Of a stretch of 64,000 nt of DNA, positions 21,966-54,065 are shown piece after piece. The position numbers and the translations under genes are program-made. Each line of letters opens with the position of its first letter. Within the stretch, counting starts at the first letter, position 1. The notes beneath the pieces were generated by a model. It was given only the letters and a program-made list of their open reading frames with translations. It ran no database searches and was not told where the DNA came from. Origin of the DNA: a virus; the IMG/VR virus record IMGVR_UViG_3300025449_000010, positions 8,068 through 72,067 of that record. One strand, given 5' to 3'.

Positions 21966-21975
21966 GAAAAAATAC

Positions 21976-27627: not shown

Positions 27628-28993
27628 TGCCGTCATCAATAAGGCAGCTCAGCTCCCCTCCACCTGCCCTAACGGCGGACAGGGTCAGATGAAATTACCT
27701 GCAGACCAGGTAGAACAGGTCAGGTCTAACATCAATGCCCTGGCTGATAAGTATGGATGCTCAGCAGATGGACTGACTGCCATCATCGTCAATGAATGTA
27801 GTTTCGACTACAGGGAATGGGGTGGGAGCGGGGGCGTCTACTTCGGTTATTTCCAGTGGTGTTCATCCAACAGCGGTGACTGTGCAGGTGAATGGGTCAG
27901 GACTGGACTAGCCCGACTGGGACAGAGTCAGCAGATAAATAGTATAGCCACAGTCAACGGTGCCGCCCAGACTGCCCCAGGAGGCCCATGTGACAACTAC
28001 CTGAGCTACAATATAGCGCAGTGTAAGGGAATCAATACCGCAGATATTGCCAGCATATACCTATTAATTCTCTCACCAGCCTACTGTAACTACGGCGATA
28101 CCACGCCACTGCCAATAGCGGGACAGCAGTCACCTAACCTATACGACAGTAATGGGCATATAACCAAGGTTCAGATCAGAGCTGCCCTGGAGAAGGGTGC
28201 TCAGGACTTCACTAAAAGCACAGCATCTCTGGGAACTGGGTCTGGAGTGAATAACGGTGCAGGTACCTACTCCAGTGGGAACAGTGCTGGCTCTAGCTCT
28301 ATTCCAGTTATATACTTCAATCCCACCCCAGTAGATCCCTACTACCCCACCAAGGTAATCTGGCAGGGAAGATCCGTCAACAAGATAGTCAGGGCAGCAG
28401 GTGGAGGTAATCTGACCTATCCCGGCGCCGCCCCTCCATCCAGTCCAACTGCAGGACAGGGTAACTCCACATCACTGGGTAAGAATATACCTGCAATGCC
28501 AGCAGGCTTCGTACCCACTCCTGCAACCAAGGGCAGCTTCGGAGATCCCCTACCCCAGCCCTACATAGTGACCAGTGAGTTTGGCGTGAACCGGGGAACC
28601 CATATACATGCAGGATTAGACCTGGTACCATCATCAAGAAATATATTCGAGACACCGGTACTGAGCGCCACATCAGGTGTAGTAATCAGTGCAGGCTATG
28701 AAGCGGACTACACTAATCCCAGAGGAACAACAAGATGCGATGCCATGTATGCTGGAAAGGGCTTCGGTAGCTTAATTACTGTATACACCTACAATACAGC
28801 TCCAGGTGCTCCTGCCTATATACTGTATGGACATGTTCTCAGATGGGATGTGAAGGCTGGAGATATAGTAACTAAGGGACAACCAATAGGACTCGTAGGC
28901 TGTGAGGGCGATTCCACTGGAGCTCATCTACACTTCCAGGTCAATGATTCCAACAATACCCCCATCAATCCCCATAACTACCTGTCGACATGA
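27605..28993 (+). CDS. Lysozyme-like (SLT-type) domain + M23 metallopeptidase
   Basis: AII.NE.SF...GYFQ at the N-terminus; HAGLD (HxxxD), YGH and STGAHLHF (HxH) at the C-terminus. Confidence 0.82.
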   Translation: MPLTDLGNAVINKAAQLPSTCPNGGQGQMKLPADQVEQVRSNINALADKYGCSADGLTAIIVNECSFDYREWGGSGGVYFGYFQWCSSNSGDCAGEWVRTGLARLGQSQQINSIATVNGAAQTAPGGPCDNYLSYNIAQCKGINTADIASIYLLILSPAYCNYGDTTPLPIAGQQSPNLYDSNGHITKVQIRAALEKGAQDFTKSTASLGTGSGVNNGAGTYSSGNSAGSSSIPVIYFNPTPVDPYYPTKVIWQGRSVNKIVRAAGGGNLTYPGAAPPSSPTAGQGNSTSLGKNIPAMPAGFVPTPATKGSFGDPLPQPYIVTSEFGVNRGTHIHAGLDLVPSSRNIFETPVLSATSGVVISAGYEADYTNPRGTTRCDAMYAGKGFGSLITVYTYNTAPGAPAYILYGHVLRWDVKAGDIVTKGQPIGLVGCEGDSTGAHLHFQVNDSNNTPINPHNYLST

Positions 28994-42700: not shown

Positions 42701-43845
42701 CACCCCCAGGAAACTACGCACTGCAGGTAAGTGGGCCAGATGGACACTCAGGTACCCTGGGCATCTCAGTCTATAACAATACCCTGCAGCAGACTGCCCT
42801 GACAGCGGCTCAGAGGTGGCTAGGCTATCCTCCTGTCTACTCAGTAGTGTCAGACTACCTATATCACACCGTTGATCCGTACATGTCAGGACTGAATCAG
42901 GCGATATCAATCACTGACACAATTCAGCTACTGGGAATATACATCTACATCCGCACCATAGGTACGGGCAACATGAGATTAATCCTGCGCAGTGGAGATG
43001 TCGTAGTCTCAATCGGAGACCCAGTCAATATGACAACAGGACTCCCTACACTATTCAAGTTTCCAGAGGTGGTTACTCTCCCTCCTGGAAACTACAGTAT
43101 CGGACTAGAGGGAACAGGCTATGAGGTCTGGACAGGTGATTTCACCGTAGATCCGTCCATAATCTATCAACCAGGGATGCTCTCCACCAGTCTGACTGGA
43201 CTAGACCAGACAGTATTACCCAGCCAGAGACTGGCATATTTCTTCATCGAACCCAGCTACAGTGCGACCACAATTAACCTAGGTACCTATACAACCTCAG
43301 ACCTGCCTAATTCCATACAGGCATTTGCCCTGAATATCAGGGCCACTATTCCCAGTGGAAGCTCAGTCACATATCAATACAGTGTCAATAATACTCTCTG
43401 GACCAGCTTCGACCCCTTCACTACAGTCTGCCTGTCCAGTCCGACCACCACACTGTATCTGCAGGCACTGCTAAACGGTAATCTGACTCCACTGCTACGT
43501 ACCTCTGGTGCTACGGTATCCCTATACAGCTTCATTAACAACAGCAATGCAGTCAGTAAGGCAATCAGCACCTCGGGCTATTCTCAGGTAACGATGAACA
43601 TAGTAGCCAGCGGTCAGCCCCAGGTATATGTCCAGAATGAGACAGACATCCAGAATGGGATATATACATCACTGGCATTGGTGCCATCTAAGACCACTAC
43701 TGTAGACAGCAGTCTGGGAGTCAGCAGCTATACCTATACAGGCAATTACTCCAGCGATTCGACTCAGACTACCCATTCCCTGACCTATAGTCTGGCACTG
43801 AGCGGCAATATGTACATCTATTCAGCCACAGTGAGTACCAGTTAA
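39769..43845 (+). CDS. DUF4815-like large virion structural/tail protein
   Basis: Y.D.Y....W..LLF.PG..LQA.EL.E.QS at the N-terminus; I.PG.AY..G; beta-rich body. Confidence 0.75.
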   Translation: MPVNTYLSNPIYQDKYTRASGWKKLLFTPGGTLQAGELIELQSMLADQNSQLMEAMYANGAILNGVVGTVSGNTLKFSAGQVYFSGYVLDIPSQSITLPDTLSHNVYLLVTETITEQVSNNTLNTSGSADILVWKPSIQLGSGDALLGTINNGIYVAASPRGLIDDRIGSFLHDLYGNYQVSGLDTTVVQSSTPTSTSVTSSDIAPLQSELAALNTYITQLQNLAGTNLNSTTLVSSLSTEITQRQADANALRIRIGALQSGGTTQQIIRNSANFDINPGTAYIGGKLITTTGTSLVVPMDNIGSAAVTGAQYSGVSAASQIINFTQTTAPKPAINFTITSSNGVLTSAASLYAGDVVYAVSPAISPLTVGVPYTISYLSSGTLSLAQSGLPALKLPSGVYSLNRPAQNYLQLSFAGLPSDPIISAITIATTVQGIPDALQDIVNLLNGQTSSATVTSSATDGRSTAGIIALLNEHMTLSLNGNALEITAKPVPNLQNITLNITTAGGTTSDWTSGNLFRTVQASYTLGFQPVIEVTQVLGVVQVTGQAMTRGALSGGRDSIGSTSLVELLRVWQGTTVYVLGVDYTLYNTTDIDWTRSLTSGNQPALGSTYYISYTQNIPITDYTLSNGAIKFNRQVPISFTVNYSYSLNVAGLITLDASGNFNYLLSAPSAQPTAPATPDNVLAVARFNMNSSSVTVTAATESKALSYVQLNQLADTVQATASQLASLQLQISSGNSNGLLPIVADLFHDLSQLDFSSDSFTASLSPITQTITQGIQHATIPLRASGSSANLSNTAVTNSQNTRSISQPLSASYASQVRIYSTDANQFICSTDGFYPCDQISPQTSDISSQVLSAVTNLWGGAALSIADGITQGIPYRNFSASRGYITSLSQATAPRTVVNIRLEELHNQPYSFTWRGNPVSLGSALYGSFDIITNPTLDVVTGFFKSNGLLPSSSSGWSISDGVIAGKFYIPAGTPPGNYALQVSGPDGHSGTLGISVYNNTLQQTALTAAQRWLGYPPVYSVVSDYLYHTVDPYMSGLNQAISITDTIQLLGIYIYIRTIGTGNMRLILRSGDVVVSIGDPVNMTTGLPTLFKFPEVVTLPPGNYSIGLEGTGYEVWTGDFTVDPSIIYQPGMLSTSLTGLDQTVLPSQRLAYFFIEPSYSATTINLGTYTTSDLPNSIQAFALNIRATIPSGSSVTYQYSVNNTLWTSFDPFTTVCLSSPTTTLYLQALLNGNLTPLLRTSGATVSLYSFINNSNAVSKAISTSGYSQVTMNIVASGQPQVYVQNETDIQNGIYTSLALVPSKTTTVDSSLGVSSYTYTGNYSSDSTQTTHSLTYSLALSGNMYIYSATVSTS

Positions 43846-46091
43846 TGGATATTAAATACCTCTTCAAGACTGGCGATCTATTATCTACCGCTGATCTCAA
43901 CGGGGCGATAGATATTCTAATCAACCAGCAGAACTGCATAGCATCATCCCTGGGCGGTCCATGGTTCATCCTGGGGGGACTGGATGTGACAGTAGTTGGG
44001 AATCAACTGGCAATCACGGATGGCTATTTCTACGCCCAGGATCAGGGCTGCATAGTAGAGGTAAATGGCGGCACCTATAATTCTCCAGTCTATATTTACT
44101 ATAAGATTAATAACAGACAATACCCAGATCCACAGCAGGGTCCATCCTCAGGACTGGGTGCTAAACACTATGCTGTACAGGGTATCCTGACATCAGACCT
44201 GTCGATACCACGACTATACAACTATCTATATCGCCCCTTTGTCACATTGGGATCCAATGGAACTGTCAAGATAGCTGCACAGACCAGTATTCAGACACCC
44301 CTACCGACAGTACCTGACCATATTCGCTGTGGACTGACAGTCCGCTCAGCAGGCGGAGTTATTGAGGTGGAGAAGGGGCAGGGATACTATCGCAGTCAGG
44401 TGGTATATGTCAATCAGCCATCTATCTTCAGCCTAGATGCAGCCAATCCCTATATTAATCTCAATATGAGCGGTCTCTATCAGTCTCCAGTATCAGCTGA
44501 CCTGAACATAGCGTATGTGACTGGCACAGCTGTATGGTGTAATCTGAATAGAAATGTCTCACTGACCAGACAACATGCCCTGCTGACTCAGAATGCAGCC
44601 AACCAGAGCCTACTGATAAATCTATCTGCCAACGCTAATCAGACATATCTATCTAGTCTGGGTGTGTATATAGATTATCTGACATCCAACTCCACATCAG
44701 ATACCAATAACACACTCTATAATGCTGTATTCAGTAATGGGAAGGTATACTCAGGCGGCACTCCAGTAGCACCTGGCAGTATCAACTACAGCTCAGGAAA
44801 TATTATCTATCTGAATAAGTATCCCCTCGCCCTGACAATTCCCTACACCAACAGCAGTAATAATATATTAACAGGAACAACTAATCAACCTATCATGGCT
44901 ACAGCAGTTCCCTGTGCGGAGTATGATGGCAACCTGGTGTTCATCCACGGTGCCGCCCCAAATCAAGCCTATACAATAACAGACTACAGTAACTCCGCAT
45001 ATTCCCTGACATCAATAGGAGCAGTAGATACCTCACAGACTACTGACAGTAATGGTATGGCTCAGGTCAGTCTGACTCCCCAGAATAATAATCCAATTAA
45101 GGTTACTGTGGGATCTAGCGGTCTGAGAGTACCCAGGAACAACAGCAATATTAATCCCACCCCATCAATCAGACAGCAGATAACTATCACCGCTGGAGCT
45201 ATGTGGTCAGGACTATCCGTAGGTGGTAAGGGTTCAGCCTATGTCTATCTGATCAAGGGAGTTCAGATAGTCAGTTGGCTGTATGCTACAGGAAACAGTA
45301 ACATACTATATGGTAATTTCAGAATACCTATATACGTGGCTCCAGGTACCTATTACATAGCAATTTCAGCTAACACAGATAGCAGCATCAATCTAACCGC
45401 AGGTGCATCAGCCCAGATTGCCTCAGGTGGCGACTGGAGCTTCATAGCCGGTAATATATCCTGGACACCTGTAGTTGCAACACCCACCAGTCAAGCCACC
45501 ACATCAAGCGTAACTATAACTACTGTCAGTCCATTCAGATACATACAGCCGAACATAGTATCCACCAATCCCCCCAACTGCACTGTCAGCTCAGCTAACC
45601 AGACCAACAGCTCAGGGTACAGCGGTGTAATTAATCTCAATCTGCAGGGAGGTACAGGTACCTTCCCAGTAGTGGATCTGCAGGCAACTAACTATACCCT
45701 CTATAACGATACGAACCTGGCATCATGGATCAGAGATGAGATAGACGTACCCATGGCATTTACTAATCTAGAAGTCAGTCTAGATGCCATGATATCTGGT
45801 CAGGGATCGCTACTGGTCTATATCAGCTCTAACGGCGGTCAGACATGGGAACAGTTAGATATGATCAGCACTACATTACTGAACCCTGCCAGTGGACTCA
45901 GTCGCTATCTCTACGGTGCCGCCCTAACATCATCTGTAACTATAGTAGATTCCAATAACAATTCAACAACTATACCCAGAACCAGATTAAAACTACGAAT
46001 AGATTTCAAGAATACAGATAACAAGACATACTTCCAGCGTATTGCTATTAATACTAATCCTGGACCACTCTCTCAAAAAGTCGTTAAATGA
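43845..46091 (+). CDS. Tail/baseplate-fibre protein, possible divergent paralogue of the preceding gene
   Basis: F..GD.L...DLN....I..GL.V N-terminus; C-terminal S..GGQTW; TAATG coupling to the preceding gene. Confidence 0.55.
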   Translation: MDIKYLFKTGDLLSTADLNGAIDILINQQNCIASSLGGPWFILGGLDVTVVGNQLAITDGYFYAQDQGCIVEVNGGTYNSPVYIYYKINNRQYPDPQQGPSSGLGAKHYAVQGILTSDLSIPRLYNYLYRPFVTLGSNGTVKIAAQTSIQTPLPTVPDHIRCGLTVRSAGGVIEVEKGQGYYRSQVVYVNQPSIFSLDAANPYINLNMSGLYQSPVSADLNIAYVTGTAVWCNLNRNVSLTRQHALLTQNAANQSLLINLSANANQTYLSSLGVYIDYLTSNSTSDTNNTLYNAVFSNGKVYSGGTPVAPGSINYSSGNIIYLNKYPLALTIPYTNSSNNILTGTTNQPIMATAVPCAEYDGNLVFIHGAAPNQAYTITDYSNSAYSLTSIGAVDTSQTTDSNGMAQVSLTPQNNNPIKVTVGSSGLRVPRNNSNINPTPSIRQQITITAGAMWSGLSVGGKGSAYVYLIKGVQIVSWLYATGNSNILYGNFRIPIYVAPGTYYIAISANTDSSINLTAGASAQIASGGDWSFIAGNISWTPVVATPTSQATTSSVTITTVSPFRYIQPNIVSTNPPNCTVSSANQTNSSGYSGVINLNLQGGTGTFPVVDLQATNYTLYNDTNLASWIRDEIDVPMAFTNLEVSLDAMISGQGSLLVYISSNGGQTWEQLDMISTTLLNPASGLSRYLYGAALTSSVTIVDSNNNSTTIPRTRLKLRIDFKNTDNKTYFQRIAINTNPGPLSQKVVK

Positions 46092-46139
46092 CCTGCTCAT
46101 TCATTTTATTCGTCCTCTCCGGATCTGGCGTATTAGCGT

Positions 46140-46276
46140 CCGCGTAGCGGCTTGCACTTGTAGCAATGTGGTAGACTGCGATCGGGACTGGGTGAAGATA
46201 GCCCTGGCTCTCTACCTGCCCGTATCACTTCACCCAGTCCTCGCAGGCGTCAAACCACATGCGAAAAGTGACGCGG
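46140..46276. other. Long imperfect GC-rich hairpin next to the replication origin
   Basis: Nested arms: CCGCGT/ACGCGG, CACTT/AAGTG, ATGTGGT/ACCACAT, CTGCGA/TCGCAG, GGACTGGGTGAAG/CTTCACCCAGTCC. Confidence 0.75.
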
Positions 46277-46296
46277 GATTCAGTTCCCTACCATAT

Positions 46297-46368
46297 AGAT
46301 TAAAGAAGATTAGCAAAAAAAAATTAAAAGATTAAAATAAGATTAGAATATAGATTAAATAAAGATTA
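46297..46368. repeat. AT-rich putative DNA-unwinding element with phased AGATTA repeats
   Basis: AGATTA at 46297, 46307, 46329, 46340, 46352 and 46363. Confidence 0.6.
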
Positions 46369-46436
46369 GCGCTGAAGTTTGTAATGTTGAAAACACAGTC
46401 CTATCAACCCATACAGTCATTTATTATTTTAAAAAA

Positions 46437-46580
46437 TCTACTTACAGCGTCGAAGGATTCTACTCACAGCGTCGAAGGATTCTACTCACAGCGTCGAAGG
46501 ATTCTACTCACAGCGTCGAAAATTATTGATTTCAATCTACCCACAGCGTCGAAGGATTCTACTCACAGCGTCGAAAATTA
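46437..46580. repeat. 22-bp iterons (TCTACTCACAGCGTCGAAGGAT)
   Basis: Copies at 46437, 46459, 46481, 46503, 46536 and 46558 (spacing 22,22,22,33,22); variants at 46653, 46831 and 47012; adjacent to the TrfA-like gene. Confidence 0.88.
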
Positions 46581-46608
46581 TTAATCAATTAAAAGATTCT
46601 AATTAACT

Positions 46609-47040
46609 TGACGACACATAATTTGTCACTGTGCATAGATTATTGACTTCCATCTACCTACAACGTCGAAAATTATTAATCAATTAAAAGATTTTAATTA
46701 ACTCGAAGACAATAATTTGTCACGACGACACATAATTTGGCATGACGACATTAATTTGTCACTGGCGACATATAATTTGTCACTGTACACGACACATAAT
46801 TTGTCACTGTGCATAGATTATTGACTTCCATCTACCTACAACGTCGAAAATTATTAATCAATTAAGAAATTTTAATTAACTCGACGACAATAATTTGTCA
46901 CGACGACACATAATTTGGCATGACGACATTAATTTGTCACTGGCGACATATAATTTGTCACTGTACATGACGACACATAATTTGTCACTGTGCATAGATT
47001 ATTAACTTCCATCTACCCACAGCGTCGAAAATTATTGATT
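46609..47040. repeat. ~180-bp tandem repeat (about 2.4 copies) built from ~20-bp GACGACACATAATTTGTCAC units plus one iteron
   Basis: The unit restarts at 46613, 46791 and 46972. Confidence 0.85.
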
Positions 47041-47042
47041 AC

Positions 47043-47816
47043 TCAATTTTTTTTAATAAGGTTACTCTTATTAACTATTATTAGGTTGTTTTTAAATTCA
47101 AAGTTAACTAGAAAGTTAATTTTGACTAACTCATTAAGTGCCTTCTTAATTAACTGTTTAAACTTATCCTTATCTTTACATTGACTACCAGTAATTTTAT
47201 ATATAAAATCTAATGAAACTGGAACTGGTTTACTATGAGAACTATAATATTCAGATAATTTTAATGCTAACGGTTTCTGTCTTAATAGTTTTCTAATATT
47301 CATATCTATACCTGTCCAATCATTGTTGTAGAACAGATTTACGATATCTTTATTTAATTTGATTTTATATTTTTTAGTACTTTCATCTAATATACCTGCA
47401 TGAATTAAACTGCCAAAATATTTGCGATCTTGAAACTTAATAACAACAGCGCAGGCTGTCATTCTAATAAGAGAATTAAAAAGACTTTCATACTGATCGC
47501 CTCCCTTGCTCTTACCCATGCGGTTTAAAATATCAGAACCGCTGATACTTATATTTTCATTTAATTTATGATTTTTAACCAGGTCAACAACAGCCATCCA
47601 AACATCTAGATCATCACCATTTAACTGCTCTCCTGTGTATTGAATTTCGTAACCATTCTGCGAAAATATTACCTTATGTTTCATATTTTCACGACTACCA
47701 GACCTAATAGCTGCAAACAATGCGCTCCTGAGCAGTACATTAGGCGAAACAACGCTGTCTGCAGAAACTTTAAACAGAGGTAATTGAATAGCTATCTCGT
47801 CTTTATCACTTATCAT
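47043..47816 (-). CDS. TrfA-family plasmid replication initiator
   Basis: PN.LLRSALF, YTGEQL..DDLDVW, GSLI, LA..L..YYSSH..P.P....I....GS. Confidence 0.88.
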   Translation of the reverse strand: MISDKDEIAIQLPLFKVSADSVVSPNVLLRSALFAAIRSGSRENMKHKVIFSQNGYEIQYTGEQLNGDDLDVWMAVVDLVKNHKLNENISISGSDILNRMGKSKGGDQYESLFNSLIRMTACAVVIKFQDRKYFGSLIHAGILDESTKKYKIKLNKDIVNLFYNNDWTGIDMNIRKLLRQKPLALKLSEYYSSHSKPVPVSLDFIYKITGSQCKDKDKFKQLIKKALNELVKINFLVNFEFKNNLIIVNKSNLIKKN

Positions 47817-48567
47817 CAGTAACTACTCGAGAAATTGCTTCAATAGTAGCATCTGTTCCTCCATATTGTGAAGGTAGACCTGACCTTATCAGGGCATTCT
47901 TATATGATTCTGATTCTACAATTGATGGAAATACTCTTAAACCATATTCACTGAATTTATTTAATGCAGTTTTACTGATATTTGTCATATTGCTGCCGAT
48001 GATCTTAGTCCTAAATGGAATAATGCCTTCCACAACTCCAGTAAATATCTCATTCAATCTCAGCTCATCAACAGTTGCTAATGTCATTTTAAGGCTAGTA
48101 CATCCCTTATCATTAGCTTCTACGGGAATTAAAAGCATATCTGCGCTAGAATAGGCTGCCAGAGTTAACTGCGAAAGTGCAGGTGGAGTATCTATAATAA
48201 TGATCTCTGCATAGTCAGTTAATGGTCTAATATGCCGGCGAAAATATGACGTTGCATTACCAGATGATGACAGTATTTCAGGTACGCCAATTGAATACTT
48301 ATTGGCAGGTATGAGCCACAGATTAGATTCTACATCCAACATAGCCCCTGCTGCAGATGAGCGTTCCTGGGGATTTAAAATATTCAAGAGAGTTGTAGAT
48401 TCTATAGGAACATTTATACCACTATACTGTGTAGTATTAGCCTGGGGATCGGTATCTATCAGTATTGTGCCAACTCCCAGTCTGGCTAGGTATCTAGAAA
48501 GCATTAACGCTACTGTACTCTTACCCTGACCACCTGACAGTGAGCCAATTGTCACGATTCTAGCCAT
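47806..48567 (-). CDS. parA: ParA family partition ATPase
   Basis: Deviant Walker A SLSGGQGKST, IDTDPQAN, IIIDTPP. Confidence 0.92.
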   Translation of the reverse strand: MARIVTIGSLSGGQGKSTVALMLSRYLARLGVGTILIDTDPQANTTQYSGINVPIESTTLLNILNPQERSSAAGAMLDVESNLWLIPANKYSIGVPEILSSSGNATSYFRRHIRPLTDYAEIIIIDTPPALSQLTLAAYSSADMLLIPVEANDKGCTSLKMTLATVDELRLNEIFTGVVEGIIPFRTKIIGSNMTNISKTALNKFSEYGLRVFPSIVESESYKNALIRSGLPSQYGGTDATIEAISRVVTDDK

Positions 48568-48651
48568 ACAAGTAATGTAATAATTAATTTATTCTTATAT
48601 TATACGTGGATAGCGGGTTAACATATAGAAATACAGATCACATGGATAATC

Positions 48652-49572
48652 ATGGCTAAAAGTAAGATTCAAGCAGTTATTCCTGAAATTGTTGAAGACA
48701 AGATAAATGCAATTACCAGTCCATCCTCTCAGCATGAATTAAATAGATTGGAAGCTAAGGTCAGGACTAGCTTTATTGAGGGTGCCCGGGCTCTCAAGGA
48801 GATAAATGAGAAGAAATTATATCTGATAGCTGGCTACACAAACTTCGAGAACTACTGCATGGAGAGGTTTGCTATTGGTCGAAGTCTAGCCTATCTGCGT
48901 ATAAATGGTTTTAAATATGTAGATCATTTTCAGAATGTAAAGAACCTGCCTGCTGATCAATTACCAACTTCAGAAAGACAGACCAGGGCCTTCGTGAAGG
49001 AACGTCTAGAACTAAATGAAGCATACGATCTCTGGGTGTCAGCCATTAAATCTAATAACAGACTTCCCAGCGGGCCAGACGTTGAATACCTAATTAGACA
49101 GCGTAAGGTCAAGGTCGAATACACCATCACAGTAGGTGACTACGTCCAAATATCTAGACTAGCCCTATCAGAATCTGCCAGACATCTCTATGGGGAGTGT
49201 GTTGGTGTTAACCAGGAAAGTGAAGAGGTAGAGTTACTGACTGCTAAGGGATTGCATACTGTTAGATTAAGCGATGTTAAACCCATTAAGAATGGGAAGA
49301 TACTCAGAAACCAGATAGAACGTCTCAGCAATCTTCCAGTTAAGAAGTTAGATCCATCCTCCAATATGCTCTTTAACTACTGGAGTCACAGAGCTGAAGA
49401 ACTAACACCAATGGAATTCAGAATGTTAGATCTAATAGAGGATGCCTACAGAAAAGAAGCAGATGTATCTCAACCTGAGATTAAAGTTCTTAAGACATCC
49501 AGTGAAGGCAGAATTAATACCCCTCGTAATAGCTCAATGGCAAATAAACGGGGCAGGAAACGATCTCAATAG
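48652..49572 (+). CDS. ParA-associated DNA-binding protein (cyanobacterial plasmid type, putative ParB substitute)
   Basis: LE..V...F.E...AL.EI....LY...Y.NFE.YC.ERF...R..AY..I...LPTSERQ.R; divergent from parA. Confidence 0.65.
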   Translation: MAKSKIQAVIPEIVEDKINAITSPSSQHELNRLEAKVRTSFIEGARALKEINEKKLYLIAGYTNFENYCMERFAIGRSLAYLRINGFKYVDHFQNVKNLPADQLPTSERQTRAFVKERLELNEAYDLWVSAIKSNNRLPSGPDVEYLIRQRKVKVEYTITVGDYVQISRLALSESARHLYGECVGVNQESEEVELLTAKGLHTVRLSDVKPIKNGKILRNQIERLSNLPVKKLDPSSNMLFNYWSHRAEELTPMEFRMLDLIEDAYRKEADVSQPEIKVLKTSSEGRINTPRNSSMANKRGRKRSQ

Positions 49573-49858
49573 ATTACAACAACTAACTGGTCTGGCGGCA
49601 CCGCTACTGGGTATATTGGCATCGTTTTTAACCTGTGTACCCATTAATGCGCTCAGTAATGCTCAATTAAACTATCTGGCGGCGCTGCCTCTAACTAATG
49701 CCTATATTAATCCGCCAGATGCCAGTCTATTTAAATGGACATCACCGCAATTTTCTACAGGTGTAACCACTTCCCCCGCAATAAGTGGTTACCTACTGGG
49801 ACAAGCTAGTTACAATCTAGCTGCCTGGATAGAGTATGTAGTATCGGTGGGGGGTTAG
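49463..49858 (+). CDS. Hypothetical protein (start uncertain)
   Basis: ORF ends 2 nt before the next gene; its 5' part overlaps the partner gene. Confidence 0.45.
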   Translation: MYLNLRLKFLRHPVKAELIPLVIAQWQINGAGNDLNRLQQLTGLAAPLLGILASFLTCVPINALSNAQLNYLAALPLTNAYINPPDASLFKWTSPQFSTGVTTSPAISGYLLGQASYNLAAWIEYVVSVGG

Positions 49859-49860
49859 TT

Positions 49861-52032
49861 ATGGCAGATGCCACTAATTCTCAGGTTGCGCCTGGTGCTG
49901 CTTTAAATATAATTTGGAGTTCAGTTCTAACTGGTGTACCTATGTATGGTACAAGTTCTGGCGGTAGCTACACTTCAACAAATCAAACACTAACTTTAAA
50001 TACATCAACCACTCCACAAACGGTAAATCCACCAACCAGTGTAGTTAAGAATCAACCAGGCATTACTTTTAAATATGGAACTAATACGTGGTATATGGTT
50101 CTTCAACCTGCAATGGATCCTGTACTGCCAATGCAGGGATCTAGGGGCGCTCCCGGTGCCGCCGCAGGTGGAATAGTAGTTAAGGCTAAACCACTAATAG
50201 CCCGTCATGTGATACCAGGCTTTGGACCAATAATTCAGCATCTAGGTGTCTATAGCACTATAGTTTCCTTCGTAGGAGCATTCGTGGGTTATGAAGGAAC
50301 TAACCAGAATAATATATCAGAATTCTATACCTATCCATCCAGTGTTAATTGGCAATCTAATTCTAATTTAAGCTCAGCTATAGTAGTAGATAGTTATGGA
50401 GCTTTTACTACATTCTGGAATGGAGTAGTTAAAAGCGGTTATCAACTTCAAGTAACTATCGCAACTAACACTATACTGAATGGCAGCAGTTTTAAAGAAA
50501 ATAGTCTAAGAGATTCAACTGGACAACCTAACTTTATTGGATACATTTCTAAAATGGAAGCTATGTATGTCAGAGATGACTTAACATGGTACAACATAGA
50601 CATAGAAGTAGTTGATCAACCTAATGCTATTCCCGTGCAGTTGCCTGCCTGTAAAAACAGTAGCATTAGTAGTAATGATGTAAACAACGTTTCTAATAGT
50701 ATTTGTTCTACTGATCCTAGCTTAGGAGAAAAAGCTCTAAGATGCTATTTAGATCAATGTAAAGCAGTAAAATTAGCAACATTAGCTTCCGATTTAGTAG
50801 TAGATGGAGATCCAAAATCACCATATCAAAAGGCAGTATATAGTGTTTTTTTAATACTAGATACGAGTAAACGAACATTGCCTAAACCTAATAGCGGTAG
50901 ATTTGGCGGCTCTATTGTTAATTCTATATGGTTAAGAAATGTTGGAGATGGTTCAATATACACTAGCGATTCTATTGATATTGCTTATATAAAATCCTTA
51001 TTTGTTAATGTATTAGATGATGATATGACTAATTTAATTAACTATAGAAACAATGAAAATAGAATTATATTAACATATGAAAATAGTTCAATAAAAATTA
51101 ACTTTGACTTTACATATTTAAATCAACAAACAAGTGGTATTAATTCAAGCGGTAATCTTACTATTTCAAATAGTTATGAAATGACTACAAGTATTTTTAA
51201 TAATAATTTTATTAATATAAACATTGACAATAATTTTTACAATTTTACTAGTTATTTAACATATACTAGTTATAATTATTTAAAACTGGTTAGTTCAGAC
51301 GCTCAACTACTTGGATTATCTTCTTGTGTCATAAATAACTCAGACATAAAATTGTTAAATCAAGGCTTACCTGTAGACTCAAAAACAAGTGCAAACCCGA
51401 CTACTACAGCTTTAAACCCAAATACATGTCCTGATGCATTAAAAAACAGCGGCTACTGTACAGCTGTATTTGCAGGTTCATATACATTTTATGTAGCTGG
51501 TTCTTGCAGTGCCACAGGACGTATATATGATTCATCTGGAAATATAGTATCTTTAAGAGGCAATTTAAGTCCTACAAGTAATGTAGATCCTTTAAATTAT
51601 TCTAAAAATCAAGCTGAAAATTTCTCATCAGCAATTCTTGGCGGTTTTGTTTCTGCTTTAGGTAGAGCAGTATCTGGTTCTTCTAATGAATTTTTAATAG
51701 CTAATTATTTTCAAATTAAAAGTGACAATAATGATCTTAATAGTTATCCTGGTCTTCAAGTCTTAGCACTTTTTGATGCAAAATCCTCTGATCCAGGAAA
51801 AATACAAGCTCATCCATATATTGTAGTTACAGGAAATAACCCTGGTAAATTTTACGATGGCTATGGTATAGGTGCGACAACTATCTACAATGTTTTAGTC
51901 TATACCGACGGTAAAGGTCAGTATTATAAGTATAAATCAGATAGCAATAATAATATTACTCTAGACACAGGTCAGGCTTATCAATTTAAAACAGATCCTA
52001 ACTCTGGACAAACAGGATTGTATCAAATTTAA
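49861..52032 (+). CDS. Probable tail-tube initiator/baseplate protein with AT-rich C-terminal extension
   Basis: IARH.IPG.GP.IQHLG......F.G resembles P2 gpU/Mu N-terminal-type domains. Confidence 0.5.
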   Translation: MADATNSQVAPGAALNIIWSSVLTGVPMYGTSSGGSYTSTNQTLTLNTSTTPQTVNPPTSVVKNQPGITFKYGTNTWYMVLQPAMDPVLPMQGSRGAPGAAAGGIVVKAKPLIARHVIPGFGPIIQHLGVYSTIVSFVGAFVGYEGTNQNNISEFYTYPSSVNWQSNSNLSSAIVVDSYGAFTTFWNGVVKSGYQLQVTIATNTILNGSSFKENSLRDSTGQPNFIGYISKMEAMYVRDDLTWYNIDIEVVDQPNAIPVQLPACKNSSISSNDVNNVSNSICSTDPSLGEKALRCYLDQCKAVKLATLASDLVVDGDPKSPYQKAVYSVFLILDTSKRTLPKPNSGRFGGSIVNSIWLRNVGDGSIYTSDSIDIAYIKSLFVNVLDDDMTNLINYRNNENRIILTYENSSIKINFDFTYLNQQTSGINSSGNLTISNSYEMTTSIFNNNFININIDNNFYNFTSYLTYTSYNYLKLVSSDAQLLGLSSCVINNSDIKLLNQGLPVDSKTSANPTTTALNPNTCPDALKNSGYCTAVFAGSYTFYVAGSCSATGRIYDSSGNIVSLRGNLSPTSNVDPLNYSKNQAENFSSAILGGFVSALGRAVSGSSNEFLIANYFQIKSDNNDLNSYPGLQVLALFDAKSSDPGKIQAHPYIVVTGNNPGKFYDGYGIGATTIYNVLVYTDGKGQYYKYKSDSNNNITLDTGQAYQFKTDPNSGQTGLYQI

Positions 52033-52037
52033 TATCT

Positions 52038-52370
52038 ATGCGTACTGACTATCCCGTATCTGAAACTACCCTATTAGCTCTCAACTATCCACCCAGTGAG
52101 CCTATACATGCTCTGATGTTATCTAATGGCTATCTGTGGGCAGATACTACCATACCTGCAGTGAGTATTATCTATATCCTCAATAATGGAACACCTGTCA
52201 GCACATCTATAACTGGAATTCAGTTTACATCCACACAGTCTATTACATCGGGCGGCACCGTGACTACACAACAGCTTGTCCTACAACCACAGGGCATAAC
52301 GCTGTCTATTAGTAATATAACGTACCTGCTCCTGCCCAATGGTCTCAGCTACAGCTCAGCAGCTTCTTAG
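52038..52370 (+). CDS. Hypothetical protein
   Basis: 110-aa ORF within the operon. Confidence 0.5.
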   Translation: MRTDYPVSETTLLALNYPPSEPIHALMLSNGYLWADTTIPAVSIIYILNNGTPVSTSITGIQFTSTQSITSGGTVTTQQLVLQPQGITLSISNITYLLLPNGLSYSSAAS

Positions 52371-53358
52371 CCAAGTACAATCCCTAGTTACACCCCTATC
52401 TGCATTAACAGTGGATAGTAATGCCAGTGCCCAGGCGCAGGTAACTCAGAATCAAGACTATCCAAATCGTCCATATAATCCACCCCTATCCTTCCTCTAC
52501 ACCGATACACTGTCAACATTACTGGCTGAAATCAGTAATAACAACTACATATATGCTGGTCAGATAACCAGACCAGGGACACTGTTAATGCCTGCCCGTA
52601 CCGCCTACGAGCCGCATCATGTATTTGTCAGTAGAACTGGATCCTATGCCTACAGGTTCATCTACATACCCCTGAGATTGTTGGCCAACGGCCCTCAGAT
52701 ACTCTCAATTCCAACATGGACATATGACGGTTCCAGCATCTCTACAGGTACATCCTACAATACTGGCACTATGTTTGCTTCAGATGCCAGTAGCTGGCCG
52801 GTTACACATGGTATCTATTGTCAGGACTACTATCACCCGCTGGTATTCGGTCTACATTTCACTGGCAATGCTGTAGATATTGCAGGCGGCACTCCGCTCT
52901 GGGAATATCAGGACAGACTAGGCTGGCTAGGTGACAGGGGTACCCTCTATCTGGATATATATCAACCGCTTGGTATGCGTTTCCCCCTGGGTATACCGAT
53001 AGGCGGTCAACTGCAGCCAGATCCATCCTACAACAGCGGCGAGCTGTACCTACCCAGTAGCGGCTCATATGATTTAATTGGCTACTATAGGGGATACATG
53101 ACCAATGATACCTATAGTCAGACCACCTACTATCTCTACCAGTATCCCGGTGGAGTGTTTCTGAGCAGTGCCGTCCCAATTCCCATACAGATAAATACGG
53201 TATGGAATCAGTCTCACACCATATGGAATACATCTCAGTGGCAGTGGGGTAATAACACCTATAACCCCCTGTCCAGCGTAATCAGCAGTCTGAGTGGCAG
53301 TGAGGCATCTGCTATTACCAGACAATCTGTAATTCAAACATGGACGGAGGTGCGCTGA
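52339..53358 (+). CDS. Hypothetical (probable structural) protein
   Basis: 339-aa ORF within the operon. Confidence 0.55.
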   Translation: MVSATAQQLLSQVQSLVTPLSALTVDSNASAQAQVTQNQDYPNRPYNPPLSFLYTDTLSTLLAEISNNNYIYAGQITRPGTLLMPARTAYEPHHVFVSRTGSYAYRFIYIPLRLLANGPQILSIPTWTYDGSSISTGTSYNTGTMFASDASSWPVTHGIYCQDYYHPLVFGLHFTGNAVDIAGGTPLWEYQDRLGWLGDRGTLYLDIYQPLGMRFPLGIPIGGQLQPDPSYNSGELYLPSSGSYDLIGYYRGYMTNDTYSQTTYYLYQYPGGVFLSSAVPIPIQINTVWNQSHTIWNTSQWQWGNNTYNPLSSVISSLSGSEASAITRQSVIQTWTEVR

Positions 53359-54062
53359 TGGGAATACTATCCAGTAATTATCAACTGATAGAGATGTATG
53401 TAGGTGGCAGCACTGCGCTACAGAACAAGGTACCAGACAGCGTCATCATGGAGCTGACCAGGAGACCGCAGGAACAGACCGTTATAGTTAATGCAGCTGC
53501 CTATGTCTTCAGTCTGACCTCCCCCTACGGCTACGATCCACATATACTCTCAGGCAATATCTATGCTGTCTATAATCAGGCAGGGAGAATGCTCTATCAG
53601 GTGGCTGGTCATAACGGCATCTGGGGACGTAATGCACTGGACGCTCAGTTGGTATTCGGTAGCCAGCCCTGGGAATACTATTTCGTCAATGCAGGAGGGG
53701 GTATTGTATATGGAATACTTCGAGGAGAAGATCCCATACCCTTGGGCAGCAGTGGGGACACATCAACCTCTCTCAGTAGTGGCAACGGCTGCACCCTGAT
53801 ACTCAGCGGCAGTGGCACAGTCTACGTTCTAGCTAAGGGTACACGTACCAGCAGCATCTCAGCTGCCATCGTCATGGCACAGGGTAAATCTACTGTCATT
53901 ACCGGTGCCGCCCCAGTATCAGTGATCATCTCCAGTGATAGCTGGATATATCTACAGAATGCATCAGGTACGCCCAGTACTGCGATTCTGCCTGGTGATA
54001 AGGTAGCCAGTGGGCTATATTTCACCAGAGCCAGCTCGCCAGATACTGCCATTACCGTTTAA
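53358..54062 (+). CDS. Hypothetical (probable structural) protein
   Basis: TGATG coupling at 53356-53360 supports a start at 53358 rather than 53340. Confidence 0.55.
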   Translation: MGILSSNYQLIEMYVGGSTALQNKVPDSVIMELTRRPQEQTVIVNAAAYVFSLTSPYGYDPHILSGNIYAVYNQAGRMLYQVAGHNGIWGRNALDAQLVFGSQPWEYYFVNAGGGIVYGILRGEDPIPLGSSGDTSTSLSSGNGCTLILSGSGTVYVLAKGTRTSSISAAIVMAQGKSTVITGAAPVSVIISSDSWIYLQNASGTPSTAILPGDKVASGLYFTRASSPDTAITV

Positions 54063-54065
54063 TAT

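What the first reader, a model, noticed from the sequence alone, without database searches (positions are those of the whole stretch)
46092..49572. Complete iteron plasmid replicon embedded in a myovirus tail operon: a large phage-plasmid
Seen: hairpin, AT-rich repeats, iterons, TrfA-like rep, parA and a partner gene, flanked on both sides by co-oriented virion genes; much more AT-rich than the flanks and lacking the iterated octamer. Known: P1 and N15 are phage-plasmids; TrfA is the IncP-1 initiator. Inference: a temperate large myophage maintained as a low-copy plasmid through a TrfA-type replicon, apparently acquired or swapped as a module. I do not recognise this as a described group.
Basis: partly seen in the sequence, partly recalled or inferred. 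Interest (0 to 1): 0.8.

Follow-up and report, generated by a model that had tools for sequence, protein, structure and literature searches.

The report
Plasmid replicon inside cyanophage tail genes
A large uncultured virus of freshwater cyanobacteria, related to Microcystis phage Ma-LMM01, carries between two tail genes a complete and well-conserved plasmid-type replication and segregation cassette, so it may be able to persist in its host as a plasmid, though that lifestyle is inferred and not shown.

Summary
Window 46092-49572 holds a structured GC-rich stretch, a 23%-GC stretch with phased AGATTA motifs, nine same-strand 18-bp iterons, eleven copies of a second 16-17-bp repeat, a TrfA-family initiator, a ParA ATPase and a divergent 306-aa gene.

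The host molecule is an IMG/VR phage record (72 kb, about 45% complete). Its capsid protein is 44% identical to that of Ma-LMM01.

The cassette sits where Ma-LMM01 gp109 and gp110 overlap directly. This is not a misassembly. Contigs bridge both junctions in 4 of 4 public runs, at flank-like depth in three of them.

Of the 12 listed substitutions inside the three cassette genes, 10 are synonymous.

TrfA nests in a cyanobacterial clade whose members share the parA-trfA-iteron layout. ParA belongs to the cyanobacterial plasmid "McdA-like" subgroup.

Best reading, about 0.55: a working plasmid replicon that lets this phage persist as an episome. This is a new phage-plasmid lineage, not a new kind of element. 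The plasmid state, a repressor and the ParA partner are all unshown. This scan has already noted TrfA replicons in other uncultured phages on other DNA.

The parts
43845..46091 (+). Left flank: 748-aa tail or baseplate protein, the positional and weak sequence homologue of Ma-LMM01 gp109
   Evidence: MAFFT alignment with gp109 and My-WqHQDG WOL31320 shares the C-terminal SSNGGQTW block. tblastn to the Ma-LMM01 locus gives 32% over 122 aa, E 8e-5. It follows the DUF4815 protein homologous to gp108.
46092..46290 (.). GC-rich (54.8%) structured stretch with a long hairpin. Its role is unknown: possibly the boundary or GC-rich flank of the origin, or an insulator against read-through from the tail operon.
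   Evidence: RNA fold z = -3.0. Perfect 13-bp inverted repeat at 46185-46197 / 46228-46240. No Rfam match. Unique within the contig and among the fetched loci. The two listed substitutions within the hairpin, 46204 and 46210, fall in its loop.
46291..46436 (.). AT-rich stretch (22.6% GC) with six AGATTA motifs spaced 10-22 bp apart; the candidate DNA unwinding element
   Evidence: Its position next to the main iteron cluster is read directly from the sequence.
46437..46575 (+). Main iteron cluster: six 18-bp iterons, four tandem at 22 bp plus two more at 22 bp
   Evidence: The motif occurs nowhere else in the 64-kb window on either strand apart from the three dispersed copies listed below.
46606..47029 (+). 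Two and a half 178-bp units. Each holds five copies of a second 16-17-bp repeat (11 in all), an AT-rich spacer and one further iteron (46653, 46831, 47012). This is the candidate centromere or copy-control array.
   Evidence: Short-read contigs break here, and the unit number appears to vary between runs (joints and loose ends).
47043..47816 (-). trfA: TrfA-family replication initiator, 257 aa
   Evidence: Pfam PF07042 E 5.4e-17. 375 plasmid records match, up to 39.7% identity, and are annotated trfA. It sits inside a 100/97-supported clade with cyanobacterial TrfAs. QLPLF at residues 11-15 and PN..RSALF at 25-34 are visible.
47806..48567 (-). parA: ParA/MinD-type ATPase, 253 aa, of the cyanobacterial plasmid 'McdA-like' subgroup. 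It lies upstream of trfA and overlaps it by 11 nt.
   Evidence: Pfam AAA_31 E 2.8e-27; phrog_164 ParA-like partition protein E 1.8e-32. Best solved relative is Cyanothece McdA-like 6NON, E 3.2e-42, sharing SGGQGK[ST] and the mid-protein lysine. Best named database relatives are cyanobacterial, at 36-37% identity; the best hit overall, 40%, is unnamed.
48568..48651 (.). 84-bp, 26%-GC divergent intergenic region between parA and ORF306; the presumed promoter and operator region
   Evidence: Coordinates, GC. The consensus promoter scan of the whole region did not exceed shuffles: 17 sites against 15.6 expected.
48652..49572 (+). ORF306: candidate DNA-binding adaptor (ParB analogue) of no curated family. 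It has a helical N-domain, a KOW/Tudor-like barrel, C-terminal helices, and a basic tail that overlaps the next phage gene.
   Evidence: 804 distant homologues at E<=0.001. No Pfam family. Sub-threshold match to NCBIfam borfam_49, 'chromosome replication/partitioning protein', E 1.1e-6. AF2 model pLDDT 85.7. VIA-align Z 7.8 to Spo0J and 7.4 to ParB-parS for residues 19-191; Z 8-9 to KOW barrels. Homology and confident structure end near residue 270-275.
49463..49858 (+). Right flank: small gp110-like gene. The listed ORF begins at 49442; the internal Met at 49463 is the likelier start. It overlaps the last 110 nt (about 36 codons plus the stop) of ORF306 in another frame.
   Evidence: Alignment with Ma-LMM01 gp110 and My-WqHQDG WOL31323; sequence context. 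This puts the right edge of the foreign DNA near 49460.
49861..52032 (+). Right flank: 723-aa tail protein homologous to Ma-LMM01 gp111
   Evidence: tblastn 29% identity, E 6e-14, to the gp111 region in all 10 Ma-LMM01-group records; phrog_37225.

Best explanation
A 3.4-kb plasmid replicon cassette of cyanobacterial origin has been captured by a Ma-LMM01-related contractile-tailed cyanophage. It sits at a variable site between two tail genes, and the phage lineage keeps it functional.

Proposed mechanism (inferred):
- TrfA binds the nine iterons that lie directly downstream of its gene. It opens the adjacent 23%-GC AGATTA stretch and recruits the host replisome through its N-terminal QLPLF clamp-type motif. 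This gives theta replication of the whole phage genome.
- The McdA-like ParA ATPase segregates the copies at cell division. It would act with ORF306 bound to the 11-copy second repeat array.
- The phage could therefore persist as a low-copy episome, either a plasmid prophage or a stabilised carrier state, instead of integrating.
- parA-trfA are antisense to the late tail operon. Late transcription across the cassette would therefore be expected to shut plasmid-mode replication off.

Shown: presence, completeness by sequence, family membership, physical linkage to the phage, conservation and purifying selection.

Inferred: replication activity, the ORF306/centromere pairing, the plasmid state itself and the antisense switch.
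For: 1. Complete replicon anatomy.

2. The same gene and site order occurs in relatives. Nine of 10 cyanobacterial-clade trfA loci examined carry 5-12 iterons at 21-23 bp period downstream of trfA, beginning within about 30-170 bp of it, on the same strand. The tenth contig ends 93 bp after the gene. The phage's first iteron lies 14 bp after the trfA stop. Its TTCGAC core recurs exactly in L007 and as TTCGAT in L012, while L004 has the close variant TCCGAT. In 22 of 54 TrfA loci a co-oriented parA ends 315-913 bp upstream of trfA; 44 of the 54 have at least 1.5 kb of upstream sequence.

3. TrfA keeps the N-terminal QLPLF and PN..RSALF motifs. In RK2 TrfA, QLSLF is needed for beta-clamp binding, and the AMPNDTARSALF peptide contacts iteron DNA (passages of PMC8034659).

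4. The ParA subgroup is the one that MacCready et al. consider plasmid-partition ATPases of cyanobacterial plasmids (passages of PMC7182216).

5. The cassette is part of the phage. Contigs bridge the left junction in 4 of 4 runs and the right junction in 4 of 4 runs. No contig skips the cassette. Depth in cassette against flanks is 17.8/18 (X1), 366/349 (X7) and 70/80 (X9). TrfA, ParA, ORF306, the tail protein and the capsid protein co-occur on contigs of 134, 86, 84 and 62 kb at 97-100% amino-acid identity.

6. Selection. Of the 40 substitutions listed out of 228, 12 lie in trfA, parA or ORF306, and 10 of those are synonymous. P(>=10 of 12) is 2e-5 to 2e-4 under neutrality. The two flanking tail genes show 11 synonymous and 13 non-synonymous; Fisher p = 0.04. 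Indels in trfA are 3-nt or terminal. Divergence in run X7 is 1.8% in the cassette and 1.9% in the left flank, so the cassette predates the split of the sampled strains.

7. Relatives of this phage group encode their own DNA polymerase, helicase and primase (passages of 10.1101/2023.04.12.536658). A plasmid initiator plus a partition ATPase is therefore not obviously needed for lytic replication.
Against: - There is no direct evidence of an episomal state.
- Only about 45% of the genome is held. In it I found no repressor, antirepressor, integrase or toxin-antitoxin gene.
- The named relatives Ma-LMM01, MaMV and My-WqHQDG lack TrfA (0 records by tblastn) and are treated as lytic in the passages I read.
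- The capsid gene was not found in the 5 genomes that hold the closest TrfA relatives, nor in 401 sampled cyanobacterial genomes.
- ORF306 belongs to no partition family at curated thresholds.
- No E. coli-type DnaA box with up to 1 mismatch lies in 45900-49700.
- The phage TrfA sits on a long branch, 1.22 against a median of 0.29, with deviant composition. This could mean a changed function.
- The cassette interrupts a late operon, an odd place for a maintenance module.
Confidence: 0.55

Rival explanations
1. The cassette works, but as a lytic-cycle or early replication origin. In this reading TrfA and the iterons start phage DNA replication after injection, as lambda O/ori or P1 origins do. 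ParA positions replicating phage DNA rather than ensuring inheritance. The phage would then be virulent.
For: - Iteron-binding initiators are common in phage lytic origins (established knowledge, recalled).
- TrfA-like families exist in PHROGs: phrog_26900 E 6e-14 and phrog_775 E 2.3e-9.
- Relatives are described as lytic.
- No lysogeny genes were seen in the 72 kb held.
- The capsid gene was not found in 401 sampled cyanobacterial genomes.
Against: - The layout is that of plasmid replicons of the same TrfA clade, including an upstream parA.
- The ParA subgroup is otherwise known from plasmids and from carboxysome positioning.
- Sister phages replicate without this cassette and carry their own polymerase, helicase and primase.
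- A second repeat array typical of centromere or control sites is present.
Confidence: 0.17
2. The cassette is a selfish passenger. A small cyanobacterial plasmid, or its minimal replicon, recombined into the phage and is spread by the virions. Its genes are selected for the cassette's own propagation, for example after excision or after abortive infections, and not for the phage's lifestyle.
For: - The cassette sits at a cargo hotspot where a sister phage holds unrelated genes.
- It is compact, about 3.4 kb, and self-sufficient.
- Its base composition differs from the left flank.
- In run X6 the trfA-parA contig has depth 18.3 against 10.1-10.4 for the flanks. This could reflect extra free copies, or strain mixtures.
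Against: - No contig in the 4 runs shows the cassette in any other context or circularised.
- No contig shows the phage without the cassette.
- No convincing flanking direct repeats were found. The best pair is 13 of 15 nt at 45998 and 49568.
- The ORF306 3' end is fused into the phage gene gp110-like, so a precise free form is not evident.
- Depth equals the flanks in X1, X7 and X9.
- Cassette divergence equals flank divergence.
Confidence: 0.13
3. The ParA-like gene is a host-manipulating gene, in which a McdA-like ATPase interferes with carboxysome or nucleoid organisation. On this reading trfA and the iterons are a decaying remnant carried along.
For: The closest solved relative carries the name McdA. 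Type 1 McdA proteins share the SGGQGKT motif (passages of PMC7182216). Cyanophages often carry host-derived metabolic genes (general knowledge).
Against: - trfA is intact in every variant seen. The one listed substitution in it is synonymous, and its indels are in-frame or terminal.
- parA and trfA overlap by 11 nt in one operon.
- The iteron arrays are intact.
- MacCready et al. argue that the plasmid-borne McdA-like proteins are plasmid-partition ATPases.
- No McdB-like small gene follows parA.
Confidence: 0.04
4. Assembly artefact: a plasmid fragment wrongly joined into a phage contig.
For: There is a composition change at 46290. Short-read contigs break inside the repeat arrays.
Against: - Synteny resumes exactly on the far side of the cassette, running gp109-like, cassette, gp110-like, gp111-like.
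- Both junctions are bridged in 4 of 4 runs from 4 studies between 2016 and 2022, three of them with strain-level differences from the window.
- The same gene set lies on at least four long contigs from JGI, ENA and Logan.
Confidence: 0.01

Closest known systems
Bacteriophage P1 plasmid prophage (RepA/oriR iterons plus ParA-ParB-parS); features recalled, not tested here
   Same: A contractile-tailed phage genome that carries an iteron-type initiator and a ParA-type partition ATPase on the same molecule as its virion genes. This is the model for how the present element would work.
   Different: The initiator family differs: TrfA, not P1 RepA. ParA is a small McdA-like type without an N-terminal DNA-binding extension. 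The putative adaptor has no ParB/Srx domain. The cassette is a 3.4-kb insert inside the tail operon, not a separate plasmid region. The host is a cyanobacterium. No immunity or addiction genes have been seen so far.
RK2/RP4 (IncP-1) trfA-oriV replicon
   Same: Same protein family, PF07042. A clamp-type QL(S/P)LF motif and the PN..RSALF DNA-contact motif are present. There are multiple iterons at about 22-bp period next to an AT-rich stretch, with a GC-rich stretch beyond it. The RK2 oriV order is recalled.
   Different: The best identity to any plasmid-record TrfA in PLSDB is 39.7%. No DnaA boxes were found. The iterons directly abut the 3' end of trfA. There is no long TrfA-44 form: the protein is 257 aa. 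The gene sits in a cyanobacterial clade, not the IncP-1 clade.
TrfA replicons on contigs of cyanobacterial MAGs (Chamaesiphon, Synechococcales, Thermosynechococcaceae; loci L004-L010, L012, L014, L025)
   Same: These are the nearest TrfA relatives, at 44-49% identity, in a clade supported at 100/97. They share the trfA-then-iterons layout at 21-23 bp period.
   Different: They are not in phage context in the flanks held. No capsid homologue was found in the 5 genomes searched. They have different iteron sequences. Their ParA, where present, belongs to another subgroup. No ORF306 homologue was found with tblastn or with an ORF306-family profile.
Microcystis phage Ma-LMM01 (Fukuivirus) and relatives (MaMV-DC and others, Microcoleus phage My-WqHQDG)
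   Same: The capsid protein is 43.5-44.2% identical in 10 of 10 matching records. Sheath and baseplate families are shared, and the gp108-gp111 gene order is the same.
   Different: Identity is too low for the same genus. None of these phages has TrfA or ORF306. In Ma-LMM01, gp109 and gp110 overlap with no insert. My-WqHQDG has a 197-aa and a 1452-aa gene at the same site.
Plasmid-encoded McdA-like ParA of Cyanothece sp. PCC 7424 (PDB 6NON/6NOO/6NOP)
   Same: E 3.2e-42 over residues 5-239. The Walker A motif SGGQGK[ST] lacks the signature lysine, and the mid-protein lysine aligned to K151 is kept as NDKG at residues 152-155 (K151 role from passages of PMC7182216).
   Different: In those plasmids a small McdB-like gene follows the ATPase. 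Here trfA follows it directly, and the only candidate partner is the divergent ORF306.

Membership tests
TrfA-family iteron replicon (Pfam PF07042) | The initiator matches the TrfA profile above the curated threshold over most of its length | tested here: met
   62.2 bits against a cut-off of 22. Residues 10-244 match profile positions 32-275 of 282.
TrfA-family iteron replicon (Pfam PF07042) | The initiator groups with bona fide TrfA genes in a tree | tested here: met
   It lies inside a 100/97-supported set of 8 rows, 6 of them cyanobacterial. The tree has 44 rows, built from 43 of the 54 loci; I left out 11 partial or near-duplicate loci. The phage sits on a long branch.
TrfA-family iteron replicon (Pfam PF07042) | A cluster of directly repeated binding sites (iterons) of about 17-22 bp, at roughly two helical turns, lies next to the gene | tested here: met
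   Nine copies on one strand, restricted to 46437-47029 in the 64-kb window. The same layout occurs in 9 of 10 related loci. Binding by TrfA cannot be tested here.
TrfA-family iteron replicon (Pfam PF07042) | N-terminal clamp-binding QLSLF-type motif and the DNA-contact motif (RK2: AMPNDTARSALF) | tested here: met
   QLPLF at residues 11-15. P25, N26 and R30-F34 are invariant across the 30-row alignment. The motif roles come from passages of PMC8034659.
TrfA-family iteron replicon (Pfam PF07042) | AT-rich unwinding element beside the iterons | tested here: met
   46291-46436 is 22.6% GC with phased AGATTA motifs. Unwinding itself cannot be tested.
TrfA-family iteron replicon (Pfam PF07042) | DnaA boxes in the origin, as in RK2 oriV (a feature of RK2, not of the whole family) | tested here: not met
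   No TTATCCACA with up to 1 mismatch in 45900-49700 on either strand.
TrfA-family iteron replicon (Pfam PF07042) | Autonomous replication of the origin with TrfA | not testable with these tools
   Needs a mini-replicon experiment.
ParA/MinD partition ATPase, cyanobacterial 'McdA-like' subgroup | P-loop ATPase fold with deviant Walker A SGGQGK[ST] and the compensating mid-protein lysine | tested here: met
   alignment to 6NON at E 3.2e-42, with the SLSGGQGKS and NDKG motifs aligned.
ParA/MinD partition ATPase, cyanobacterial 'McdA-like' subgroup | A cognate adaptor protein and a centromere-like repeat array | tested here: inconclusive
   The candidates exist: ORF306 and the 11-copy repeat at 46613-46988. 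ORF306 matches only sub-threshold partition families and has middling fold scores to ParB HTH domains, Z 7.4-7.8.
Phage-plasmid (P1, N15, SSU5-type elements) | Virion genes and plasmid replication and partition genes on one molecule | tested here: met
   Portal, protease, capsid, sheath and baseplate genes lie on the same record as trfA and parA. The junctions are bridged in 4 of 4 runs.
Phage-plasmid (P1, N15, SSU5-type elements) | Lysogeny control (repressor or immunity) and no dependence on integration | tested here: inconclusive
   Neither a repressor nor an integrase was found in the ORFs scanned from the 72 kb held. About 55% of the genome is missing.
Phage-plasmid (P1, N15, SSU5-type elements) | Extrachromosomal maintenance in growing host cells | not testable with these tools
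   No isolate exists. The capsid gene was not found in 401 sampled cyanobacterial genomes, which is a sample only.
Fukuivirus / Ma-LMM01-like cyanomyoviruses | Shared capsid, sheath and baseplate proteins and tail gene order | tested here: met
   At 44% capsid identity this is kinship at a level above the genus (my judgement).

The most novel reading that the evidence does not exclude
A lineage of the Ma-LMM01 group, large cyanophages so far treated as virulent, has become a plasmid prophage simply by capturing a 3.4-kb cyanobacterial TrfA/ParA mini-replicon at a tail-gene cargo hotspot.

If so, this would be the first phage-plasmid described for cyanobacteria. It would give a concrete, testable route to the non-integrative, mitomycin-insensitive 'lysogeny-like' persistence that bloom studies have looked for. 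The antisense position of the cassette inside the late operon would provide a built-in switch between plasmid mode and virion production.
Probability: 0.45. Interest if true: 0.7.

Novelty: new member of a known kind. Interest (0 to 1): 0.5.

Why it matters
Whether Ma-LMM01-type phages of bloom-forming cyanobacteria can persist without lysis is an open ecological question. [quoted passage not shown]

A conserved, selected plasmid replicon in a relative gives a specific mechanism that can be tested. The fragment can be cloned, TrfA-iteron binding can be assayed, and circular phage DNA can be sought in cells.

It would also extend phage-plasmids to cyanobacteria and to a roughly 160-kb myovirus. 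In addition it shows how a minimal cassette could convert a virulent backbone.

The 3.4-kb cassette might be useful as a small cyanobacterial replicon.

If the cassette instead serves lytic replication, or is only a passenger, the finding is an ordinary example of phage-plasmid gene exchange.

Tried and rejected
Searches that found nothing or were uninformative:
- Rfam on 45500-50000 at E<=1: no match.
- tRNA/tmRNA scan of the window: none.
- Consensus promoter and terminator scan of 45900-50000: 17 promoter-like sites against 15.6 expected and 2 terminator-like against 2.0 expected, so uninformative.
- TrfA by tblastn in the 50,697 phage records: no match. ORF306 likewise: no match.
- ParA matched 74 phage records at <60% identity, among them the known plasmid prophage Leptospira LE1, but no Ma-LMM01-group phage was among those listed.
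- Single-protein scans of viral contigs with TrfA, the 748-aa tail protein and the capsid protein: no relatives.
- Single-protein scan of metagenome contigs with TrfA: no relatives.
- Exact 40-nt iteron pattern in viral contigs: 0.

TrfA-alignment scans:
- The scan of viral contigs gave one other locus, L061, at 36% identity. It looks plasmid-like (ParA, DnaJ, lipase; no phage family in 10 ORFs) and adds nothing.
- The genome-contig scan used two peptide patterns that the phage's own TrfA does not match. It therefore could not have found a near-identical copy in a bacterial genome (my reading of the patterns).

Other dead ends:
- Arsenophonus plasmid paPv9, a TrfA hit, was checked as a possible TrfA phage-plasmid. 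It is annotated as a type IV secretion/relaxase plasmid without phage genes.
- An ORF306-family profile against all ORFs of the fetched loci found no hit, and tblastn found none. ORF306 is therefore not the usual neighbour of these TrfA genes.
- Foldseek of the ORF306 model against the PDB found no match at E<=0.001.
- The protein atlas gave only leads under 0.9: DUF3102 and UPF0137/pGP6-D.
- Flanking direct repeats that would mark site-specific insertion were sought. Only a 13/15 pair turned up, which I take as chance.
- The GC-rich stretch has no copy elsewhere in the contig or in the fetched loci.
- Complex prediction with ParA x2, ATP x2 and ORF306 gave no verdict, score 0.00. This is no evidence either way.
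- No RNA holder was listed among the sequencing runs.
- The capsid gene was not found in the 5 genomes that hold the closest TrfA genes, nor in 401 sampled cyanobacterial genomes. These are samples, not proof of absence.

Literature:
- No paper holds both 'TrfA' and 'cyanophage'.
- Nine papers hold 'TrfA' and 'phage-plasmid' (8 listed). I read passages of two, and neither describes a TrfA phage-plasmid.
- The main text of Pfeifer et al. 2021 has no 'TrfA', 'cyanobacteri' or 'iteron'.
- The main text of PMC13221032 has no 'TrfA'.
They might list this element or TrfA-type phage-plasmids.

Full report
WHAT IS THERE

- Directly after the stop codon of a 748-aa tail gene comes a 199-bp stretch of 54.8% GC. 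It holds a long hairpin with perfect 13-bp arms at 46185-46197 and 46228-46240. As RNA the stretch folds with z = -3.0.
- Next is a 146-bp stretch of 22.6% GC with six AGATTA motifs spaced 10-22 bp apart.
- Next come nine copies of an 18-bp iteron, all on the + strand, found nowhere else in the 64-kb window. Four are tandem at 22 bp, two more are 22 bp apart, and three are dispersed.
- Interleaved with the dispersed iterons are eleven copies of a second 16-17-bp repeat. They sit in two and a half 178-bp units and are confined to 46613-46988.
- The last iteron ends 14 bp from the stop codon of trfA (47043-47816, minus strand). This gene matches Pfam TrfA at 62.2 bits against a cut-off of 22.
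- parA (47806-48567, minus) lies upstream of trfA and overlaps its start by 11 nt.
- An 84-bp AT-rich gap separates parA from the divergent ORF306 (48652-49572, plus).

WHAT CARRIES IT

The window is bases 8068-72067 of an IMG/VR virus record of 72,067 bp. The record is linear and CheckV rates it about 45% complete.

The + strand encodes portal, prohead protease, major capsid, tail sheath, baseplate and tail-lysin proteins. The capsid protein matches exactly ten phage records, all at 43.5-44.2% identity. These are Microcystis phages of the Ma-LMM01/MaMV group and Microcoleus phage My-WqHQDG.

The genes around the cassette are the counterparts of Ma-LMM01 gp108 (DUF4815 protein), gp109, gp110 and gp111. 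In Ma-LMM01, gp109, gp110 and gp111 overlap one another with no intergenic space. In My-WqHQDG the same position holds an unrelated 197-aa gene and a 1452-aa gene. The cassette is therefore an insertion at a cargo hotspot of this phage group.

Its right edge can be placed near 49460. Both homology to the 804 distant relatives of ORF306 and the confident part of its predicted structure end at residues 270-275. That is where the gp110-like reading frame starts, with a Met at 49463. The last 110 nt of ORF306 (about 36 codons plus the stop) thus run out of frame over the phage gene.

NOT AN ARTEFACT

TrfA, ParA, ORF306, the neighbouring tail protein and the capsid protein each belong to small 90%-identity clusters. 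The members of these clusters lie on the same set of long contigs (134,239, 85,610, 83,618 and 62,137 bp) from JGI, ENA and Logan. All variants are full length and 97-100% identical at the protein level.

Eighteen public runs from 18 studies hold part of the stretch, and nine of them hold half or more of its sampled words. They are freshwater or lake metagenomes from 2016-2022.

I laid four runs from four studies. Contigs bridge the left junction in 4 of 4 and the right junction in 4 of 4. No contig joins across the cassette. Contig depth in the cassette equals that of the flanks in three runs: 17.8 vs 18, 366 vs 349 and 70 vs about 80. In the fourth it is 18.3 vs about 10.

Contigs break inside the repeat arrays, as short-read assemblies do. 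Joints and loose ends there suggest that the unit number varies between strains.

THE CASSETTE IS UNDER SELECTION AND IS NOT RECENT

In run X7 the cassette piece differs from the window at 52 of 2,869 positions (1.8%). The left flank differs at 37 of 1,964 (1.9%).

The tool listed 40 of the 228 variant sites. Twelve lie in trfA, parA or ORF306, and ten of these are synonymous. The chance of ten or more under neutrality is 2e-5 to 2e-4, depending on transition bias. The two flanking tail genes show 11 synonymous and 13 non-synonymous changes, and Fisher's test gives p = 0.04.

Indels in trfA are a 3-nt insertion near the start and small changes at the stop. These match the protein variants seen.

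WHERE THE PARTS COME FROM

TrfA matches 375 plasmid records annotated trfA, at up to 39.7% identity. It reaches about 49-50% identity with metagenomic proteins.

A scan of one genome per prokaryote species gave 54 loci. The closest, at 44-49% identity, are on contigs of cyanobacterial MAGs: Chamaesiphon, Synechococcales and Thermosynechococcus.

I built a tree of 44 rows from 43 of the 54 loci, leaving out 11 partial or near-duplicate ones. In it the phage protein lies inside a 100/97-supported set of eight rows, six of them cyanobacterial. It sits on a long branch, 1.22 against a median of 0.29, and has deviant composition.

The layout is a family trait.
- In 9 of 10 loci of this clade, 5-12 iterons at 21-23 bp period follow trfA on the same strand, beginning within about 30-170 bp of it. 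The tenth contig ends 93 bp after the gene.
- The phage iteron, read on the trfA strand, begins TTCGAC. L007 has the same core, L012 has TTCGAT, and L004 has the close variant TCCGAT.
- In 22 of the 54 loci a co-oriented parA ends 315-913 bp upstream of trfA.

The phage TrfA keeps QLPLF at residues 11-15 and the PN..RSALF block. In RK2 TrfA, QLSLF is required for beta-clamp binding, and the peptide AMPNDTARSALFTTR cross-links to iteron DNA (passages of PMC8034659).

No DnaA box was found.

PARA AND ORF306

ParA's best named relatives, at 36-37% identity, are cyanobacterial and include a Crinalium plasmid protein. The best hit overall, at 40%, is unnamed.

Its best solved relative is the plasmid-encoded McdA-like ATPase of Cyanothece PCC 7424, at E 3.2e-42. 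The two share a Walker A motif that lacks the signature lysine (SGGQGKS) and the compensating mid-protein lysine. According to the passages I read of MacCready et al. 2020, such plasmid-borne proteins are often the only ParA on their plasmid, and the authors suggest they may partition plasmids rather than position carboxysomes.

ORF306 has no curated family but has 804 distant homologues. The evidence on its nature is as follows.
- It matches the Borrelia 'chromosome replication/partitioning protein' model below threshold, E 1.1e-6.
- A confident model, pLDDT 85.7, shows a helical domain at residues 14-156, a KOW/Tudor-like barrel at 157-213 and C-terminal helices.
- The helical domain aligns with Raf1 at Z 9.4 and with ParB/Spo0J DNA-binding domains at Z 7.4-7.8. 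These values are in the range that can be chance for helical folds.

Its role as the ParA adaptor that binds the second repeat array is therefore a hypothesis.

HOW IT MOST LIKELY WORKS

I put 0.55 on the following reading. The cassette is a working plasmid replicon that allows the phage genome to replicate in theta mode and to be segregated in dividing cells. The phage would then be a plasmid prophage or a stabilised carrier state.

The main rivals are:
- a lytic or early origin, 0.17;
- a selfish passenger replicon, 0.13;
- a host-manipulating McdA-like gene with a remnant trfA, 0.04;
- an artefact, 0.01.

The rest is unassigned.

Against the favoured reading:
- No lysogeny genes were found in the ORFs scanned from the 72 kb held.
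- Relatives are described as lytic and as lacking plasmid signatures (passages of 10.1101/2023.04.12.536658).
- The capsid gene was not found in 401 sampled cyanobacterial genomes.

For it, compared with the lytic-origin rival:
- The sister phages lack the cassette.
- According to the same preprint, they encode their own polymerase, helicase and primase.

COMPARISON WITH WHAT IS KNOWN

Functionally the nearest model is P1. By family the replicon belongs with TrfA/oriV replicons, in their cyanobacterial branch. Phage-plasmids are a well-known kind.

I found no paper that holds both 'TrfA' and 'cyanophage'. TrfA and cyanobacteria do not appear in the main text of the phage-plasmid survey of Pfeifer et al. 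2021. Supplements were closed. A 2026 data-mining paper reports 5,712 phage-plasmid-like genomes, including freshwater ones, without naming TrfA in its main text. This element could be in its tables.

This scan's own notes list TrfA/iteron replicons in several other uncultured phages on other DNA (unchecked by me). The replicon type is therefore probably not rare in phages. I rate this a new member of a known kind. Its interest is specific to cyanophage ecology, where persistence of Ma-LMM01-type phages is an open question (passages of PMC12054034).

LIMITS

- Contigs cannot show rare cassette-free variants.
- The complex prediction for ParA with ORF306 gave no verdict.

Noticed in passing
whole window; + strand copies e.g. 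2323, 9602, 12194; - strand copies e.g. 8433, 20466: The non-palindromic octamer GTGCCGCC occurs 25 times and its complement GGCGGCAC 15 times in 64 kb. It is by far the commonest 8-mer. The cyanobacterial HIP1 palindrome GCGATCGC occurs 0 times. This may be a host-related or phage-specific signal such as a Chi-like or packaging motif; it remains unexplained.
   Followed up: partly
window 3-7076 (-), continuing to contig position 1965: A single open frame of 4,394 codons on the minus strand, 36-40% GC, lies upstream of the head genes. I did not examine it.
   Followed up: no
window 10012-10647 (-): A ferritin-like (Dps-type) gene, Pfam Ferritin E 6.6e-15, lies on the opposite strand between the portal and prohead protease genes. 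It looks like another small cargo insertion.
   Followed up: no
window 54066-56507 (+): An 813-aa protein in the tail region matches the Pfam intein splicing domain (E 3.6e-10, residues 142-335). It may contain an intein.
   Followed up: no
window 49869-50046 and 50660-51043: In the gp111-like tail gene, contigs of runs X6 and X7 replace about 140-176 nt with 138-155 other letters and skip or diverge over a further 382 nt. The gene is 33% GC. This is a hypervariable segment, probably host-recognition related.
   Followed up: partly
L003 10182-15172 (Microcoleus phage My-WqHQDG, record 50181-55171): The same gp109/gp110 junction holds a minus-strand 197-aa gene and a 1452-aa gene in this sister phage. 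The site is therefore a recurrent cargo hotspot.
   Followed up: partly
window 1-7000, 20001-24000, 32001-34000, 50001-52000, 58001-64000: Base composition is strongly mosaic. Islands of 29-42% GC sit inside a backbone of about 50% GC, several of them within large structural genes.
   Followed up: no
window 46974-48862 in run X6: The contig that carries trfA and parA has depth 18.3, while the flanking phage contigs have 10.1-10.4. The other three runs show no such difference. This could reflect mixed strains that share the cassette, or extra copies.
   Followed up: no
window 27605-28993 (+): A 462-aa tail-region protein has a C-terminal metallo-endopeptidase or endolysin-like domain (19 PHROG families, best E 4.3e-16). 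It is probably a tail-associated lysin.
   Followed up: no
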